A DNA stretch of 64,000 nucleotides from a phage: the NCBI GenBank assembly GCA_037431425.1, contig GCA_037431425.1_4129.1. The stretch is one strand, 5' to 3'. Positions 16,901 to 29,892 of the stretch are shown here, piece by piece. Made by a program: the position numbers and the translations under genes. The notes beneath the pieces are model-generated. The model was not told the origin of the DNA, made no database searches, and was given only the letters and a program-made list of their open reading frames with translations. Position 1 is the first letter of the stretch. Every line of letters starts with the position of its first letter.

Positions 16901-17356
16901 ATGTTTAAAAATTTTATTGTTATTGTAGCAGTACTGTTTGGTGCATCATGTTTTATTACACCAGTACATGCAGAAGAACAACGTCAAACTATTAAAACTA
17001 TTGGTACTGGTAAAACACCACCTAAACGTACTGCGGAAGAATACATGCCGGAAATCCGTGAGCGTTATCGCCAGACATACAGGGAAAAACATGCAAATGA
17101 CAAACCAATCAAAAAGCACAAATGGGAAGTAGTTAAATCCCCTTCATTTTGTGCTGGTTATGCGAAGGTAAAGGTTGAACAACACAACAACCAGTACTAT
17201 AAGGATATGTATTACTTCTATGACTCCAGAATTTCTGACACTGATTTGATGGCAGGGAAGGTTGATAAAGAAGAATTTCTTCAAGGTTATGATATGATGG
17301 ACGATGCTAAGATCATGGAGTGTGTAGATGTGTATGAAAAATATAGAGGGTTCTAA
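16901..17356 (+). CDS. secreted protein, 151 aa
   Basis: signal-peptide-like N-terminus (FIVIVAVLFGASCFITPVHA/EE). Confidence 0.75.
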   Translation: MFKNFIVIVAVLFGASCFITPVHAEEQRQTIKTIGTGKTPPKRTAEEYMPEIRERYRQTYREKHANDKPIKKHKWEVVKSPSFCAGYAKVKVEQHNNQYYKDMYYFYDSRISDTDLMAGKVDKEEFLQGYDMMDDAKIMECVDVYEKYRGF

Positions 17357-24259: not shown

Positions 24260-24568
24260 ATGTTTCAAACTAACACTCAAGGTTTTGTAATCATTGATTT
24301 GAATCAAAACAGCGGTAATTGGATGAAACCTACTGACGCATGTATGCAGTTTGATTTCTTAGGTTACAGAATTAGTGTAAGCACTGGTGCTTCTGTACTG
24401 AGGGGTGGTTGTATTGTTGAACATCTGGTAACTGATCCAGAAGGTCGTGAGTATGAAATCGCAGGTTCAGTACAAGATGCCATTATGTTTGTATGTCAGC
24501 GTGAAATGAATGGTTCGAATTCAAATGCACTGACTCATGCTCTTTCTCAAGAAGTGGAGATTCGTTAA
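24260..24568 (+). CDS. hypothetical protein, 102 aa
   Basis: GAGGA SD. Confidence 0.75.
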   Translation: MFQTNTQGFVIIDLNQNSGNWMKPTDACMQFDFLGYRISVSTGASVLRGGCIVEHLVTDPEGREYEIAGSVQDAIMFVCQREMNGSNSNALTHALSQEVEIR

Positions 24569-24819
24569 TGAAATACATTGTAGCAGTACTCGTCGCATTT
24601 TTACTCACTGCATGTGATGCTTCAACCAAAGAACGCACAAGTGATTTTATTCTCCCGACTGAATTAAAAGAAGCCGGATGTAAGATTTATCGTATGCAAA
24701 AGGACGGTGCTGATGTAACCTTGTATACAGTTTATTGCCCTAATGCAAATACCAGTACTGGATACACTAGCGGTAAAACACGAGTCAATACTTCAGTGAT
24801 TAATGGAGTACAACAATGA
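24568..24819 (+). CDS. lipoprotein, 83 aa
   Basis: signal plus lipobox LLTAC. Confidence 0.75.
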   Translation: MKYIVAVLVAFLLTACDASTKERTSDFILPTELKEAGCKIYRMQKDGADVTLYTVYCPNANTSTGYTSGKTRVNTSVINGVQQ

Positions 24820-25184
24820 GCCTTGATACAACCCGTGCAACAGATTTATTAACTCGTCTGAATGATGAAGAATATCTTGCTGAAATAAAGTACAAGCTTG
24901 ACAAACTGGTTCGAAGTGCTGAAGTAATTGAAGTTGAAGGTCACTTACCAATGGATCAATTCCATACGTTCAACGAAGAGATGGTTTATTATCCTAATGA
25001 AATTTGGATTGAGTGGCAACATTGGACTGGTAAAACACTACGTATTGAAGGGTATTGTGTGAAGTATGAACGTGATCCTGGTTATGTGACAAAAACTTTG
25101 TCAATTTGGTGTACAAAAACACATGAACTCGTTGAGGTGAATTTGAATTATATGAATGGCTTCCGTTGGGGTGATGTTAAATGA
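24816..25184 (+). CDS. hypothetical protein, 122 aa
   Basis: ATGA coupling. Confidence 0.75.
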   Translation: MSLDTTRATDLLTRLNDEEYLAEIKYKLDKLVRSAEVIEVEGHLPMDQFHTFNEEMVYYPNEIWIEWQHWTGKTLRIEGYCVKYERDPGYVTKTLSIWCTKTHELVEVNLNYMNGFRWGDVK

Positions 25185-25456
25185 TTAAAAAACTCTTGAC
25201 GGTGTTCTTTGTATTCAGTACAATGTTTCTTACAGCATGTAACGATGACGGCAGGTTAAGTGCAAAAGACTTAGCTCGATTAGATTGTGCATACACAGGT
25301 AAGTCTTTTATTAACGAGTATGAGGTATGCACACAATCAGGTCGTATCTGTGGTGGTTGGGAGAAACGTCAGGAGCGATTGTATGTATATGAATGTCCTG
25401 GACAACTCAACAAAGTACTAAGCACACAAAAACTTGTTTATGATAAGGTTGAATAA
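25181..25456 (+). CDS. lipoprotein, 91 aa
   Basis: signal plus lipobox FLTAC. Confidence 0.75.
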   Translation: MIKKLLTVFFVFSTMFLTACNDDGRLSAKDLARLDCAYTGKSFINEYEVCTQSGRICGGWEKRQERLYVYECPGQLNKVLSTQKLVYDKVE

Positions 25457-27214: not shown

Positions 27215-27877
27215 ATGTTAGTAAATCTCAACTTTATCACTTCTCCTGATTGGGCATTGCGTGGTGTTTCTTTGAACTTTAAAGAAACTCATTTTGAACA
27301 CATTGGTGATTGTACTTTAGTTAATGCTACATTTGATCCACATCATCCTTTTTGGGCTAAAATTCACGATCCAAATGTAAACAATAGTACATCAGTCATG
27401 ACTATTGTTCAAACGAAACATCCTGGTATTCTTGCAGGCTACCGTCCTGAACATGCAATTGAACACTTCACTGATTACGATGTGGTTGATGAATATCCAA
27501 TGATCCATAAAGATGGAAGTTTATACACATCTGAAGACGTTCGTGCTATCTTTAATAGTACTGATGATATTCTACCAAGTGGACGAGCACGTCCTAAGTC
27601 TTATCTTATGCATTCATCTTATGGTGTAGCAGACACACTTGAGCAGATTATGAAGAAGTTCAAGAACCTAATTGAAGGTCCAGAAGAAATTGTTTTATGC
27701 TATCATCCAGTACTGAAATCTGACCAACCAGAGAGTGGTGGGTGGCGTTGGCATAAGAATGGTGAGTACATCGGAACTAAGCGTAGTAAAGAACGCTTTG
27801 AGTACTTGTATGATGAGCCAGATGTTGATGTTGTTTTGTGTTATAATTTTCTTAAGGTGAAAAAGAAATGTATCTAG
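27215..27877 (+). CDS. hypothetical protein, 220 aa
   Basis: GAGGA SD; long ORF. Confidence 0.8.
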   Translation: MLVNLNFITSPDWALRGVSLNFKETHFEHIGDCTLVNATFDPHHPFWAKIHDPNVNNSTSVMTIVQTKHPGILAGYRPEHAIEHFTDYDVVDEYPMIHKDGSLYTSEDVRAIFNSTDDILPSGRARPKSYLMHSSYGVADTLEQIMKKFKNLIEGPEEIVLCYHPVLKSDQPESGGWRWHKNGEYIGTKRSKERFEYLYDEPDVDVVLCYNFLKVKKKCI

Positions 27878-28110
27878 TATTGAATTTTGTAGTTGTGTTT
27901 TTGTTTATGTTATATCCTACACTTGTAGCATTAGCCACTAAACGAACATGGACACACATTATTACTGTTTTCTTTCTTAACGTTGTTCTTGTATTTGTGT
28001 CTATTATTATTCCAATAAGCTTTACATATACTGACATTGTATTTGTATTACTCTTTGTGTTCAGTTATCTTATGCTCATTGATGAAAATAATATTGACAA
28101 ACGTTCTTAG
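27868..28110 (+). CDS. membrane protein, 80 aa
   Basis: hydrophobic throughout. Confidence 0.65.
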   Translation: MYLVLNFVVVFLFMLYPTLVALATKRTWTHIITVFFLNVVLVFVSIIIPISFTYTDIVFVLLFVFSYLMLIDENNIDKRS

Positions 28111-28121
28111 AACTGTATAAT
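28094..28121 (+). promoter_or_regulatory. promoter TTGACA-N16-TATAAT (spacer AGAACT variant)
   Basis: read directly. Confidence 0.6.
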
Positions 28122-28164: not shown

Positions 28165-28485
28165 ATGTTATCAGTATTGTTTTCGATTCCATCCCTAGTT
28201 CTGATTTGGCTTATTGTTTACGAATTCTTTATCACTGATGTTAATGATAAAAAAGAGTTTGTACAGTTGTTTCTGCTAGATTCACCGATTGTCCGAATTT
28301 ATTATACTATCGTTTGTGTTTCAGTACTTGTATGGATTGTGAGTTTTATTTTTCCATTGGGATCATTAGTATATACATTGAATTTTATGGAAAATGTAGT
28401 GGCTATTCTATGGCTAATTGCAGCATGGTATGCAGGTAATGTTAGTATTTGGATTGATATTTTAAAATCTAAATTCACAAAATAA
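28165..28485 (+). CDS. polytopic membrane protein, 106 aa
   Basis: GAGGA SD; 3 hydrophobic helices. Confidence 0.7.
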   Translation: MLSVLFSIPSLVLIWLIVYEFFITDVNDKKEFVQLFLLDSPIVRIYYTIVCVSVLVWIVSFIFPLGSLVYTLNFMENVVAILWLIAAWYAGNVSIWIDILKSKFTK

Positions 28486-28568
28486 TATTTAATAGTAAAA
28501 AAATACCCCTATGATATTAAATACTTGTATACTATATGTACAAATGTATTTTTCTATAGGGGTTTGTT

Positions 28569-28928
28569 ATGGGTAGATATATAAAATTAATAGCATTTGC
28601 TTGCTTATTATTTTCATGTTTTAGTTATGGTTCGTCATCTGTAACACAATGTCGTAGTTCGAATGGAACTATATATTCATTGACAAACGATCCGAATAAT
28701 GGTAAAAACATTGTTATCAATGGTGTAACTTATCGTGTTAAAGCTCAGAGTACCATCGGTAATAAAAAGATAACGACTTATGTAAATGATTCTGGAACAA
28801 TTGCGAATGTTATATTAATCGTTAACCCAATAACAGGTAATGGTGATATCTATATTGTGATTTATTTGGATACAGCATTACAACGAGAACTAAATTTGGA
28901 TGAATTAAATCTGCACTGCAAAATATAG
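28569..28928 (+). CDS. lipoprotein/secreted protein, 119 aa
   Basis: signal plus LFSC lipobox-like; paralogue of 29319. Confidence 0.7.
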   Translation: MGRYIKLIAFACLLFSCFSYGSSSVTQCRSSNGTIYSLTNDPNNGKNIVINGVTYRVKAQSTIGNKKITTYVNDSGTIANVILIVNPITGNGDIYIVIYLDTALQRELNLDELNLHCKI

Positions 28929-28938
28929 GATATAATAT

Positions 28939-29316
28939 ATGCTCAATTCTATTGTGATTTGGTTTTTAAGTATTCCAATTATTTTATCTTTTGTAATTTC
29001 TATTTGTATGATTTTATATTTTATTTTTGCTGGGGTGTATTTTATTTTTACAAACAAAGATATTTTTATTTCTAAACTTGATTCTATATTTGCTTGTGAG
29101 TCGTTAGCTTATAATTTGTGGATAATTTGTTCTTGTATCATGGGTATGGCATTCCTACTACACGAATTTAATGTCATTGATGATAATGTTGTATATATTA
29201 GTACTGGGTTAGCATTATATCCAGCTACATGGTACTTGATTTATGTTGTCGATATATGGTATAGTACTTACAAAGAATACCAGTGTAAAAAGTCATCAAA
29301 AGTTGAGAGGAAATGA
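28939..29316 (+). CDS. polytopic membrane protein, 125 aa
   Basis: hydrophobic helices. Confidence 0.7.
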   Translation: MLNSIVIWFLSIPIILSFVISICMILYFIFAGVYFIFTNKDIFISKLDSIFACESLAYNLWIICSCIMGMAFLLHEFNVIDDNVVYISTGLALYPATWYLIYVVDIWYSTYKEYQCKKSSKVERK

Positions 29317-29318
29317 TT

Positions 29319-29669
29319 ATGAAAATTATCTTGTTTTTTGTATCTATGTTAGTTTGTGGTTTAGTGTCAGCAGAACCGTTGGAAGGTGTTGTTTGTACAG
29401 ATGGAAATACCAAACACACATATCAAGGTGATAGCTATGACCGCGATATCGTTTATATTGATGGTCAACAATACAGCTTTGTTAAAGAACATACCATTGG
29501 TGACATTAGTTTTACTGAGTTCGCGAAAGATGAGAATCCGAAGGAATTGGCATTTATTGAAGTTGATTTGTATGAAGACAGTAATGGCTCTCAATATGCT
29601 AAACTTGTATTGATGCGTCGTGGTGCAAAAGAAACAAGTTTTGGTGGTTTATGTAAATACAAGGACTAA
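29319..29669 (+). CDS. lipoprotein/secreted protein, 116 aa
   Basis: signal MKIILFFVSMLVCG; shares ..(I/V)DG..Y..K..TIG.. pattern with 28569. Confidence 0.7.
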   Translation: MKIILFFVSMLVCGLVSAEPLEGVVCTDGNTKHTYQGDSYDRDIVYIDGQQYSFVKEHTIGDISFTEFAKDENPKELAFIEVDLYEDSNGSQYAKLVLMRRGAKETSFGGLCKYKD

Positions 29670-29674
29670 ATTTT

Positions 29675-29866
29675 ATGTTGATTTATCAATGTGACGGTAT
29701 TCGTGTTCTACAACATCCTTATCTTCAAATCTTTCATGTTCAGATGTTTATGGAAGGTGATAATCCGAGAACTTATGAACGCACATATGATTATTTCACG
29801 GTCAAAGAGTGCGACAACATCGATGAAGTACGACGATTAGTACATGAACTCCAAAACAAAGGTTGA
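29675..29866 (+). CDS. hypothetical protein, 63 aa
   Basis: stop TGA lies inside cassette -35. Confidence 0.6.
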   Translation: MLIYQCDGIRVLQHPYLQIFHVQMFMEGDNPRTYERTYDYFTVKECDNIDEVRRLVHELQNKG

Positions 29867-29892
29867 CTTCGGTCAGCCTTTTTTGTTATAAT
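29861..29892 (+). promoter_or_regulatory. terminator-promoter cassette copy 1
   Basis: GGTTGAC-TTCG-GTCAGCC hairpin plus T6; TTGACT in the stem acts as -35, TATAAT 18 nt downstream. Confidence 0.75.

What the first reader, a model, noticed from the sequence alone, without database searches (positions are those of the whole stretch)
28165..29669. Duplicated two-gene module: polytopic membrane protein plus small lipoprotein
The order is membrane protein (28165), lipoprotein-like protein (28569, LFSC), membrane protein (28939), lipoprotein-like protein (29319, MLVCG). The two secreted proteins share a C..NG/DG..(I/V)(N/D)G..Y..K..TIG pattern. The module is preceded by another membrane protein (27868) and has its own promoter (28094).

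Paired inner-membrane and lipoprotein genes are reminiscent of spanins, or of receptor-blocking and superinfection-exclusion pairs such as T5 Llp-type lipoproteins.
Basis: partly seen in the sequence, partly recalled or inferred. Interest (0 to 1): 0.5.

Follow-up and report, generated by a model that had tools for sequence, protein, structure and literature searches.

The report
Phage early operon exporting twin beta-barrel proteins
A jumbo E. coli phage carries a probably early-expressed operon encoding small membrane proteins and two related secreted beta-barrel proteins whose fold resembles bacterial lysozyme inhibitors; they may shield the infected cell's envelope, but they are not spanins and are not a lipoprotein family.

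Summary
The window comes from an Asteriusvirus jumbo coliphage, 98% identical to ph0011.

**What held up**
- The two secreted proteins, B1 and B2, are true paralogs (hhalign E 1.4e-9; 6.2e-7 on mature parts only).
- The promoter at 28094 matches the sigma-70 consensus at 12 of 12 positions and is conserved across two phage genera.

**What did not**
- The two membrane proteins, A1 and A2, show no detectable similarity (hhalign probability 0.5%).
- In distant relatives A1 is missing and B2 is separated from A2, so this is not a duplicated two-gene module.
- The lipoprotein reading largely fails. B2 has a classic signal peptidase I site (VSA|EP). The LFSC of B1 occurs in only 2 of about 7 lineages.

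**What the B proteins look like**
- AlphaFold models predict eight-stranded beta-barrels with invariant cysteines in the first and last strands.

**Best guess (about 0.35)**
An early envelope-protection or superinfection-exclusion operon. The periplasmic barrels would block a peptidoglycan hydrolase, as T4 Spackle does with a different fold. Spanins and Llp-type lipoproteins are rejected.

The parts
27868..28110 (+). A0: 80-aa small inner-membrane protein, about 3 TM spans. It lies upstream of the operon promoter and overlaps the end of the 220-aa gene.
   Evidence: ORF; hydropathy; orthologues in all relatives including distant L012/L013; no similarity to A1 or A2; no Pfam hit above cut-off.
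28094..28121 (+). Consensus sigma-70 promoter (TTGACA, 16-nt spacer, TATAAT). Presumed early promoter of the operon.
   Evidence: 12 of 12 matches; both hexamers conserved upstream of A1 in 7 phages of Asteriusvirus and Alcyoneusvirus. Its function and timing are inferred.
28165..28485 (+). A1: 106-aa inner-membrane protein, about 3 TM spans, N-out/C-in, Lys-rich C-tail.
   Evidence: phrog_31401, unknown function; Muenster orthologue annotated by TMHMM as 3 TMDs N-out C-in; present in 45 phage records; absent in distant relatives L012/L013.
28519..28551 (+). Conserved 13-bp stem-loop in the A1-B1 spacer, just upstream of the B1 Shine-Dalgarno sequence. Possible attenuator, processing site or mRNA stabiliser.
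   Evidence: 94.5% of cells paired across 7 phages, and 2 pairs with compensatory changes; folds with z = -2.5; alignment; the motif is not repeated elsewhere in the window.
28569..28928 (+). B1: 119-aa exported protein. It has a signal peptide and a predicted 8-stranded beta-barrel with invariant Cys28 and Cys117.
28939..29316 (+). A2: 125-aa inner-membrane protein, about 3 TM spans (long first span), very basic C-tail. It lies 10 nt after B1 and 2 nt before B2.
   Evidence: phrog_31707; orthologues next to B1 even in distant relatives; no similarity to A1.
29319..29669 (+). B2: 116-aa exported, acidic protein (pI about 4.1-4.7). It has a VSA|EP signal peptidase I site and a predicted 8-stranded beta-barrel. 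Cys26 and Cys112 are invariant (C28 and C114 when numbered from the alternative ATG at 29313). It is a paralog of B1.
29675..29866 (+). 63-aa soluble protein, last gene of the transcription unit. Function unknown.
   Evidence: phrog_6957; conserved in Asteriusvirus relatives.
29858..29881 (+). Intrinsic terminator (10-bp stem followed by a T-run) closing the operon. It overlaps the -35 element of the next sigma-70 promoter (29863-29892).
   Evidence: a terminator is annotated at the same place in phage UE-S1.

Best explanation
**What it is (well supported)**
One transcription unit runs: promoter 28094, A1, conserved hairpin, B1, A2, B2, a 63-aa gene, terminator 29858. It belongs to an Asteriusvirus jumbo phage.
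- A1 and A2 are unrelated small inner-membrane proteins with about 3 TM spans.
- B1 and B2 are anciently duplicated paralogs. Each is exported by Sec, cleaved mostly by signal peptidase I, and predicted to fold into a roughly 95-residue eight-stranded beta-barrel.
- Invariant cysteines sit in strands 1 and 8, placed to form the beta1-beta8 disulfide typical of PliC/MliC/ACP-type barrels.

**How it most likely works (inferred)**
1. Host RNA polymerase transcribes the operon right after DNA entry.
2. The membrane proteins insert into the inner membrane. The barrels accumulate in the periplasm and are oxidised there.
3. The conserved loops 2, 4 and 6 lie at one end of the barrel. Loop 4 carries the shared TIG[DN] motif. 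Through this surface the barrels bind and neutralise a periplasmic enzyme.
4. The most plausible target is a T4-type lysozyme domain, such as the baseplate lysozyme of an incoming related phage. The result would be protection of the infected cell's wall and exclusion of superinfecting phages.
5. This would be the job T4 Spackle does with an unrelated helical fold. A0, A1 and A2 may add an Imm-like block at the membrane.
For: **Operon and timing**
- Consensus sigma-70 promoter, conserved across two genera, with a terminator after the 63-aa gene.
- The genes are tightly packed, with gaps of 10 nt and 2 nt.
- The surrounding region is a long same-strand array of small unknown genes, with no lysis genes annotated.

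**Export and paralogy**
- AXA-type cleavage sites and no conserved lipobox.
- B1-B2 paralogy.
- The two cysteines are invariant in every family sequence aligned; the more distant homologues found also carry one Cys just after the signal peptide and one near the C-terminus.

**Fold**
- Predicted 8-strand barrels, pLDDT about 80.
- In this fold family the beta1-beta8 disulfide is conserved and loop 4 is the loop that inserts into lysozyme (PMC5507604, PMC2267010). In B1 and B2 the most conserved shared motif lies at the predicted loop 4.
- B2 is consistently acidic, pI 4.1-4.7, like PliC at pI 4.76 (PMC2267010).

**Biological precedent and context**
- T4 Spackle is an early, periplasmic, disulfide-bonded inhibitor of the gp5 tail lysozyme (PMC7677548).
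- This phage clade carries a virion lysozyme: phAPEC6 gp241 and RaK2 gp078, plus two paralogous lysozyme-domain proteins in RaK2 (PMC3622015).
- The B2, A2, A1 and A0 orthologues (gp047-gp050) are not among phAPEC6's 62 virion proteins; the B1 gene is not annotated in that record.
Against: - The fold is a generic up-and-down 8-strand barrel. For B1, lipocalin-like, Cap15, avidin-type and designed barrels score as well as PliC or better.
- The MliC/PliC recognition motifs SxSGAxY and YxxxTKG are absent, and the Pfam MliC model gives no hit at E <= 1.
- A PliC-fold protein without that motif, Brucella PhiA, failed to inhibit its proposed target in vitro (PMC8334348). Fold alone does not predict inhibition.
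- No target has been identified, and nothing shows any interaction with a lysozyme or with A1/A2.
- Early timing is inferred from promoter sequence only.
- The models rest on a shallow alignment of 19 sequences. The disulfide geometry could not be inspected.
Confidence: 0.35

Rival explanations
1. The barrels are periplasmic binders of something other than a peptidoglycan hydrolase. Candidates include a host receptor, porin or Tol-Pal component seen from the periplasmic side, a host protease, an incoming toxin (immunity-like), or a small hydrophobic ligand. The aim would still be exclusion or host takeover.
For: - The lysozyme-recognition motifs are absent.
- The early promoter and periplasmic location fit any envelope-directed function.
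Against: - No specific target is suggested by any search. The family is confined to this phage clade.
- For B2, the lowest-rmsd matches among the compact single-domain hits (PliC-St 2.3 A, MliC/YdhA 2.4 A) are PliC/MliC proteins, with PliC-St covering 76 of its 85 residues.
Confidence: 0.25
2. There is no joint mechanism. This is a cluster of independent small accessory envelope genes that share a promoter. B1 and B2 are an old paralog pair, and the alternating order is coincidental.
For: - A1, A2 and A0 are mutually unrelated.
- In distant relatives A1 is absent and two unrelated genes separate A2 from B2.
- A4, RaK2 and Muenster carry an extra zinc-finger gene inside the cluster.
- The neighbourhood is a long array of small unknown genes.
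Against: - B1, A2 and B2 co-occur, in the same order, in every relative examined whose sequence extends that far, including the most distant lineage (L012); the L013/L014 loci end before the expected B2 position.
- The spacers are 2-10 nt, which suggests translational coupling.
- The promoter and the intergenic hairpin are conserved.
Confidence: 0.2
3. Lysis-timing control. A1 and A2 are class-I-holin-like proteins (about 105-125 aa, 3 TM spans, N-out/C-in, charged C-tail). B1 and B2 are periplasmic antiholin-like regulators.
For: - The size and predicted topology of A1 and A2 fit.
- No holin or antiholin has been identified in RaK2 (PMC3622015).
Against: - A consensus sigma-70 promoter implies early transcription.
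- No endolysin is adjacent.
- No holin family is hit in Pfam or PHROGs.
- A1 and A2 expose only a few residues to the periplasm for the B proteins to bind.
Confidence: 0.1
4. Receptor-blocking outer-membrane lipoprotein of the T5 Llp or Cor type, for B1 only in this lineage.
For: B1 of this phage and of the 121Q type has LLFSC at Cys17, which passes the permissive PROSITE-style lipobox rule, followed by a Ser-rich linker.
Against: - The Cys is replaced by Phe in UE-S1 (82% identical). It is absent in five other B1 lineages, which have AXA sites.
- The strict lipobox rule is not met.
- There is no sequence similarity to the Llp or Cor families.
- B2 cannot be a lipoprotein.
Confidence: 0.05
5. 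A spanin pair (i-spanin plus o-spanin), duplicated.
For: Only the superficial order of a membrane gene followed by a secreted gene.
Against: - A1 and A2 are polytopic and lack a periplasmic coiled-coil domain.
- B1 and B2 are 95-residue beta-barrels, not short proline-rich lipoproteins.
- No conserved lipobox is present.
- The promoter is of the early type, and no lysis cassette is nearby.
Confidence: 0.02

Closest known systems
MliC/PliC family of periplasmic or lipid-anchored lysozyme inhibitors (Pfam PF09864, COG3895), with the structurally related Neisseria ACP and Brucella PhiA
   Same: - Small size, about 90-100 mature residues.
- Export to the periplasm.
- Eight-stranded antiparallel barrel.
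- Cysteines in the first and last strands.
- Acidic character (B2).
- A conserved motif on loop 4.
- The mix of soluble forms with lipobox forms in some lineages echoes the PliC versus MliC split.
   Different: - The SxSGAxY and YxxxTKG motifs are absent.
- The proteins are encoded by a phage in an apparently early operon together with small membrane proteins.
- The target is unknown.
- For B1, other barrel families score equally well.
Bacteriophage T4 Spackle (gp61.3), acting with Imm
   Same: - Early gene product with a cleavable signal peptide.
- Small periplasmic protein with one disulfide.
- The phage carries a baseplate lysozyme that would be the natural target.
- T4 also pairs a periplasmic factor (Sp) with a small membrane protein (Imm) for exclusion (PMC7677548).
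   Different: - Spackle is an alpha-helical bundle, whereas B1 and B2 are beta-barrels.
- There is no sequence similarity.
- T4 sp and imm are not in one operon.
- No exclusion phenotype has been shown here.
T5 Llp and Cor-type superinfection-exclusion lipoproteins
   Same: Small phage-encoded exported proteins made early. B1 in this lineage carries a lipobox-like LFSC.
   Different: - The lipobox is not conserved in the family and is absent in B2.
- No sequence match.
- A better Cor-like candidate with a canonical LTAC lipobox lies elsewhere in the window, at 24568-24819.
Two-component spanins
   Same: Adjacent genes for a membrane protein and an exported protein.
   Different: Topology, fold, lipidation, promoter class and genomic context all differ.

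Membership tests
MliC/PliC lysozyme inhibitors (PF09864) | Eight-stranded antiparallel beta-barrel of about 90 residues | tested here: met
   [not shown]
MliC/PliC lysozyme inhibitors (PF09864) | Disulfide linking strands beta1 and beta8 | tested here: inconclusive
   Invariant Cys residues fall in predicted strands 1 and 8 in every aligned family sequence. The model coordinates could not be inspected, so the S-S distance is unverified.
MliC/PliC lysozyme inhibitors (PF09864) | SxSGAxY (SGxxY) motif on loop 4 | tested here: not met
   Loop 4 reads STIGNKK in B1 and HTIGDIS in B2. The motif definition is taken from PMC5507604 and PMC8334348.
MliC/PliC lysozyme inhibitors (PF09864) | YxxxTKG motif on strand 6, and a match to the family HMM | tested here: not met
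   No such motif appears in the alignments. No Pfam MliC hit at E <= 1. No PDB sequence hit to any inhibitor at E <= 10.
MliC/PliC lysozyme inhibitors (PF09864) | Binds and inhibits a lysozyme | not testable with these tools
   This needs enzyme assays or complex modelling.
Bacterial lipoproteins (signal peptidase II substrates) | Lipobox [LVI][ASTVI][GAS]C after a signal-peptide h-region | tested here: not met
   The strict rule matches none of 35 family sequences. A permissive PROSITE-style rule matches only B1 of the window/ph0011 type and the 121Q type, and no B2. Most sequences carry AXA signal peptidase I sites. SignalP and LipoP were not available.
Two-component spanins | i-spanin: a single N-terminal TM span with a large periplasmic coiled-coil domain | tested here: not met
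   A1 and A2 have about 3 hydrophobic spans and periplasmic loops of only 4-8 residues; TMHMM notes in the Muenster record support this for its A1 counterpart.
Two-component spanins | o-spanin: a small outer-membrane lipoprotein; genes embedded, overlapped or adjacent within a late lysis cassette | tested here: not met
   No conserved lipobox. The proteins are beta-barrels. The promoter is of the sigma-70 early type, and no annotated lysis genes are nearby.
T4 Spackle | Alpha-helical bundle fold and sequence homology to gp61.3 | tested here: not met
   The predicted structures are all-beta. No family hit was found. The analogy is functional only.
T4 Imm or known holin families (for A0, A1, A2) | Match to a family profile | tested here: not met
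   No Pfam, NCBIfam or PADLOC hit above noise. The PHROG families matched have unknown function.

The most novel reading that the evidence does not exclude
B1 and B2 would be the first phage-encoded lysozyme inhibitors with a PliC/MliC fold. They would form an independently evolved beta-barrel counterpart of T4 Spackle. Made early and exported to the periplasm, they would block the T4-type lysozyme domain of the baseplate spike of superinfecting jumbo phages. The two paralogs might be tuned to different members of this clade's three lysozyme-domain proteins. The co-transcribed small membrane proteins would supply an Imm-like second barrier.
Probability: 0.2. Interest if true: 0.6.

Novelty: new variant of a known kind. 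Interest (0 to 1): 0.35.

Why it matters
More than 80% of jumbo-phage genes have no assigned function. None of the five proteins here has a functional annotation in any of the 45 phage genomes that carry them; apart from generic 'membrane protein' labels and one unsupported 'structural protein' call, they are listed as hypothetical.

Assigning B1 and B2 to a disulfide-stapled periplasmic barrel class gives a concrete, cheap hypothesis to test: do they inhibit the phage's own baseplate lysozyme, and do they exclude superinfecting phages?

If that proves right, it would show convergent evolution of exclusion by lysozyme inhibition, with a beta-barrel here and a helical bundle in T4. It would also extend the PliC/MliC fold from bacterial defence against animal lysozymes into phage-phage competition.

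If it proves wrong, the result is still a corrected annotation: these are not spanins and not a lipoprotein family.

Tried and rejected
1. Similarity of A1 to A2, and of each to A0. Tested by BLASTP, hhalign and HMM searches of all window ORFs. No similarity was found.
2. Family assignment through Pfam, PHROGs, NCBIfam and PADLOC. Only PHROG families of unknown function matched.
3. Wider homologues of B.
   - The word-seeded search of 5.8 billion proteins found 19 clusters, all in this phage clade.
   - The full HMMER search of 1.84 billion representatives added only a few more small family members. It also returned spurious hits in large proteins with multiple matched stretches (the one retrieved, P0032, is a repeat protein).
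   - IMG/VR returned only 121Q and RaK2.
   - The PDB sequence search found nothing relevant.
4. The AFDB fold library was unavailable. The BFVD viral library returned only family members and weak hits.
5. 'Structural protein' label on the B2 orthologue in phage CRJP21. The phAPEC6 virion proteome does not contain gp047-gp050, so the label is unsupported.
6. 'Phi92_gp226' note on A2 in ph0011. tblastn at E <= 1 finds A2 only in this clade.
7. Positive selection. dN/dS is 0.04-0.37, so selection is purifying. A0, A1, A2 and B1 do accumulate amino-acid changes 3-4 times faster than the neighbouring 220-aa gene.
8. The A1-B1 hairpin as a repeated regulatory motif. It is not repeated in the window. 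My first pairing register was off by two columns and was corrected.
9. A literature search for transcriptomic data on Asteriusvirus gave nothing useful.
Full report
**Source and gene content**

The region is 98% identical to Escherichia phage ph0011 and 78-82% identical to 121Q, PBECO4, phAPEC6 and UE-S1. These are jumbo myoviruses of the genus Asteriusvirus.

- A0, 27868-28110
- A1, 28165-28485
- B1, 28569-28928
- A2, 28939-29316
- B2, 29319-29669 (an alternative ATG lies at 29313)
- a 63-aa gene, 29675-29866

All are annotated as hypothetical proteins in ph0011 and its relatives. Nei-Gojobori dN/dS against three relatives is 0.04-0.37, so these are real genes under purifying selection. A0, A1, A2 and B1 nevertheless change 3-4 times faster at the protein level than the upstream 220-aa gene.

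**Transcription unit**

The promoter at 28094-28121 is TTGACA, 16 nt, TATAAT, a 12 of 12 match. Both hexamers are conserved upstream of A1 in seven phages, including the Klebsiella phage RaK2.

A 10-bp-stem terminator with a T-run lies at 29858-29881, after the 63-aa gene. It overlaps the -35 element of the next promoter. UE-S1 has a terminator annotated at the same place.

Gene spacing is 10 nt between B1 and A2 and 2 nt between A2 and B2. The 83-nt A1-B1 spacer holds a 13-bp hairpin at 28519-28551. It is 94.5% paired across seven phages, with compensatory changes at two pairs.

The neighbourhood is a long same-strand array of small unknown genes, tRNAs and the phage sigma factor. No lysis gene is annotated there. 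I infer early transcription by host RNA polymerase. This has not been shown.

**Is the module duplicated?**

Only half of it is.

B1 and B2 are homologous:
- Pairwise BLASTP gives E 7e-4.
- The PHROG of B2 weakly hits B1.
- Intermediate sequences link the two families.
- Profile-profile comparison gives probability 96.4%, E 1.4e-9. With the signal peptides removed it still gives 92%, E 6.2e-7.

A1 and A2 are not detectably related. BLASTP gives E 0.41, and hhalign gives probability 0.5%. Neither resembles A0. Their HMMs do not cross-hit any other ORF in the window.

The alternating order is not universal either. Two distant uncultured relatives were reached through the exhaustive HMMER search. 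Their order is: 220-aa-like gene, A0, a DksA/TraR zinc-finger gene, B1', A2', two unrelated genes, B2'. A1 is missing.

The conserved core is therefore B1-A2 plus B2, not two copies of a membrane-plus-secreted gene pair. The B duplication predates the split of Asteriusvirus and Alcyoneusvirus. Both paralogs occur in all 45 phage records that carry the family.

**Lipoproteins?**

B2 reads MKIILFFVSMLVCGLVSA|EP. The residue before its Cys is V (M, I or F in orthologues), which no lipobox rule allows. A textbook AXA site follows.

B1 orthologues in the Turkey3, JNE01, A4 and RaK2 lineages have no Cys in the signal peptide and carry AXA-type sites (STA|V, ANA|V, VEA|N, VSA|N). UE-S1, 82% identical to the window's B1, has Phe where the window has Cys17.

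The strict lipobox rule matches no family member. The permissive PROSITE-style rule, recalled from my own knowledge of PS00013, matches only B1 of the window/ph0011 type and the 121Q type.

Lipidation is therefore at most a lineage-specific feature of B1. SignalP and LipoP were not available.

**Fold**

AlphaFold2 was run with a 19-sequence alignment. It gives eight-stranded all-beta models: B2 at pLDDT 79.8 and B1 at 81.6. The two invariant cysteines lie in strands 1 and 8.

| Query | PliC/MliC-type matches | Other barrels |
|---|---|---|

According to PMC5507604 and PMC2267010, the MliC/PliC/ACP fold is an 8-strand barrel with a conserved beta1-beta8 disulfide. Loop 4 enters the lysozyme active site.

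In B1 and B2 the best-conserved shared motif, TIG[DN], falls on predicted loop 4. The other invariant loop residues lie on loops 2 and 6. In an up-and-down barrel these are at the same end (my inference).

B2 is consistently acidic, pI 4.1-4.7.

Several points weigh against family membership:
- The SxSGAxY and YxxxTKG motifs are absent.
- Pfam MliC gives no hit.
- No PDB sequence match was found.
- PhiA, a PliC-fold protein lacking the motif, did not inhibit its proposed target in vitro (PMC8334348).

**Function**

The descriptive conclusion is solid: an operon behind a probable early promoter that encodes small inner-membrane proteins and two exported disulfide barrels.

For mechanism I commit, at about 0.35, to envelope protection or superinfection exclusion by periplasmic inhibition of a peptidoglycan hydrolase.

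- The precedent is T4 Spackle. It is an early periplasmic disulfide protein that blocks the gp5 tail lysozyme and works alongside the membrane protein Imm (PMC7677548).
- This clade has a virion lysozyme, phAPEC6 gp241.
- In RaK2 there are three paralogous lysozyme-domain proteins, including the 886-aa baseplate lysozyme (PMC3622015).
- The B2, A2, A1 and A0 orthologues are not in the phAPEC6 virion proteome, and the B1 gene is not annotated in that record. The 'structural protein' label on the B2 orthologue in CRJP21 is therefore unsupported.

The rivals are:
- binding of a different envelope target (0.25);
- no joint function (0.2);
- holin/antiholin-like lysis control (0.1). This is disfavoured by the promoter class and by the tiny periplasmic loops of A1 and A2;
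- Llp/Cor-type lipoprotein, for B1 only (0.05);
- spanins (0.02).

**Novelty**

The family is confined to these jumbo phages and has no functional annotation anywhere. It is not a sequence member of MliC/PliC. It is a new, phage-borne variant of that structural class with unknown activity. Interest is moderate: the hypothesis is testable and would be a neat case of convergence with Spackle, but the present evidence is circumstantial.

Noticed in passing
window 24568-24819 (+): An 83-aa ORF, MKYIVAVLVAFLLTAC|DAST, has a canonical lipobox (LTAC) with Asp at position +2. It hits phrog_902 (E 3e-14) and, weakly, phrog_1119 'Cor superinfection exclusion protein' (E 0.0015).
   Followed up: partly
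window 25181-25456 (+): A 91-aa ORF, MIKKLLTVFFVFSTMFLTAC|NDDG, has a canonical lipobox and four further cysteines. It matches phrog_31263, of unknown function. This is a second genuine lipoprotein candidate.
   Followed up: partly
window 28519-28551 (+), between A1 and B1: A conserved 13-bp AU-rich stem-loop lies immediately upstream of the B1 ribosome-binding site. It is 94.5% paired in 7 phages, with compensatory changes in RaK2 and A4. In the window an extra outer stem (ACCCCTAT/ATAGGGGT) can sequester the Shine-Dalgarno sequence. It could be an attenuator, an RNase site or a translational control element.
   Followed up: partly
window 29858-29892 (+): The terminator hairpin contains the -35 hexamer (TTGACT) of the next sigma-70 promoter (11 of 12 matches, with an extended-10 TG). 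This compact terminator-promoter cassette recalls the promoter-early stem-loops described in T4-type phages (from my own knowledge; not tested).
   Followed up: no
L012 1964-2293 and L013 1240-1569 (uncultured relatives): A third, weakly B-like exported protein of about 109 aa, with a Cys just after the signal peptide and a Cys at the C-terminus (HMM E about 8e-4). The barrel family may have more paralogs in related phages.
   Followed up: partly
L005 2865-3029 (phage A4): A 41-54-aa fragment 64% identical to the C-terminal third of B2 lies just downstream of the intact B2 and is annotated as A4_205. It is a remnant of a recent partial tandem duplication.
   Followed up: no
L003, L005, L009, L012, L013: between A0 and A1/B1: Alcyoneusvirus phages, phage A4 and the uncultured relatives carry a DksA/TraR-type C4 zinc-finger gene (PF01258) inserted in the cluster. 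It is absent from the window.
   Followed up: no
window 16901-17356 (+): A 151-aa exported protein, MFKNFIVIVAVLFGASCFITPVHA|EEQ, has both a permissive lipobox match and an AXA site. It matches phrog_36332, of unknown function.
   Followed up: no
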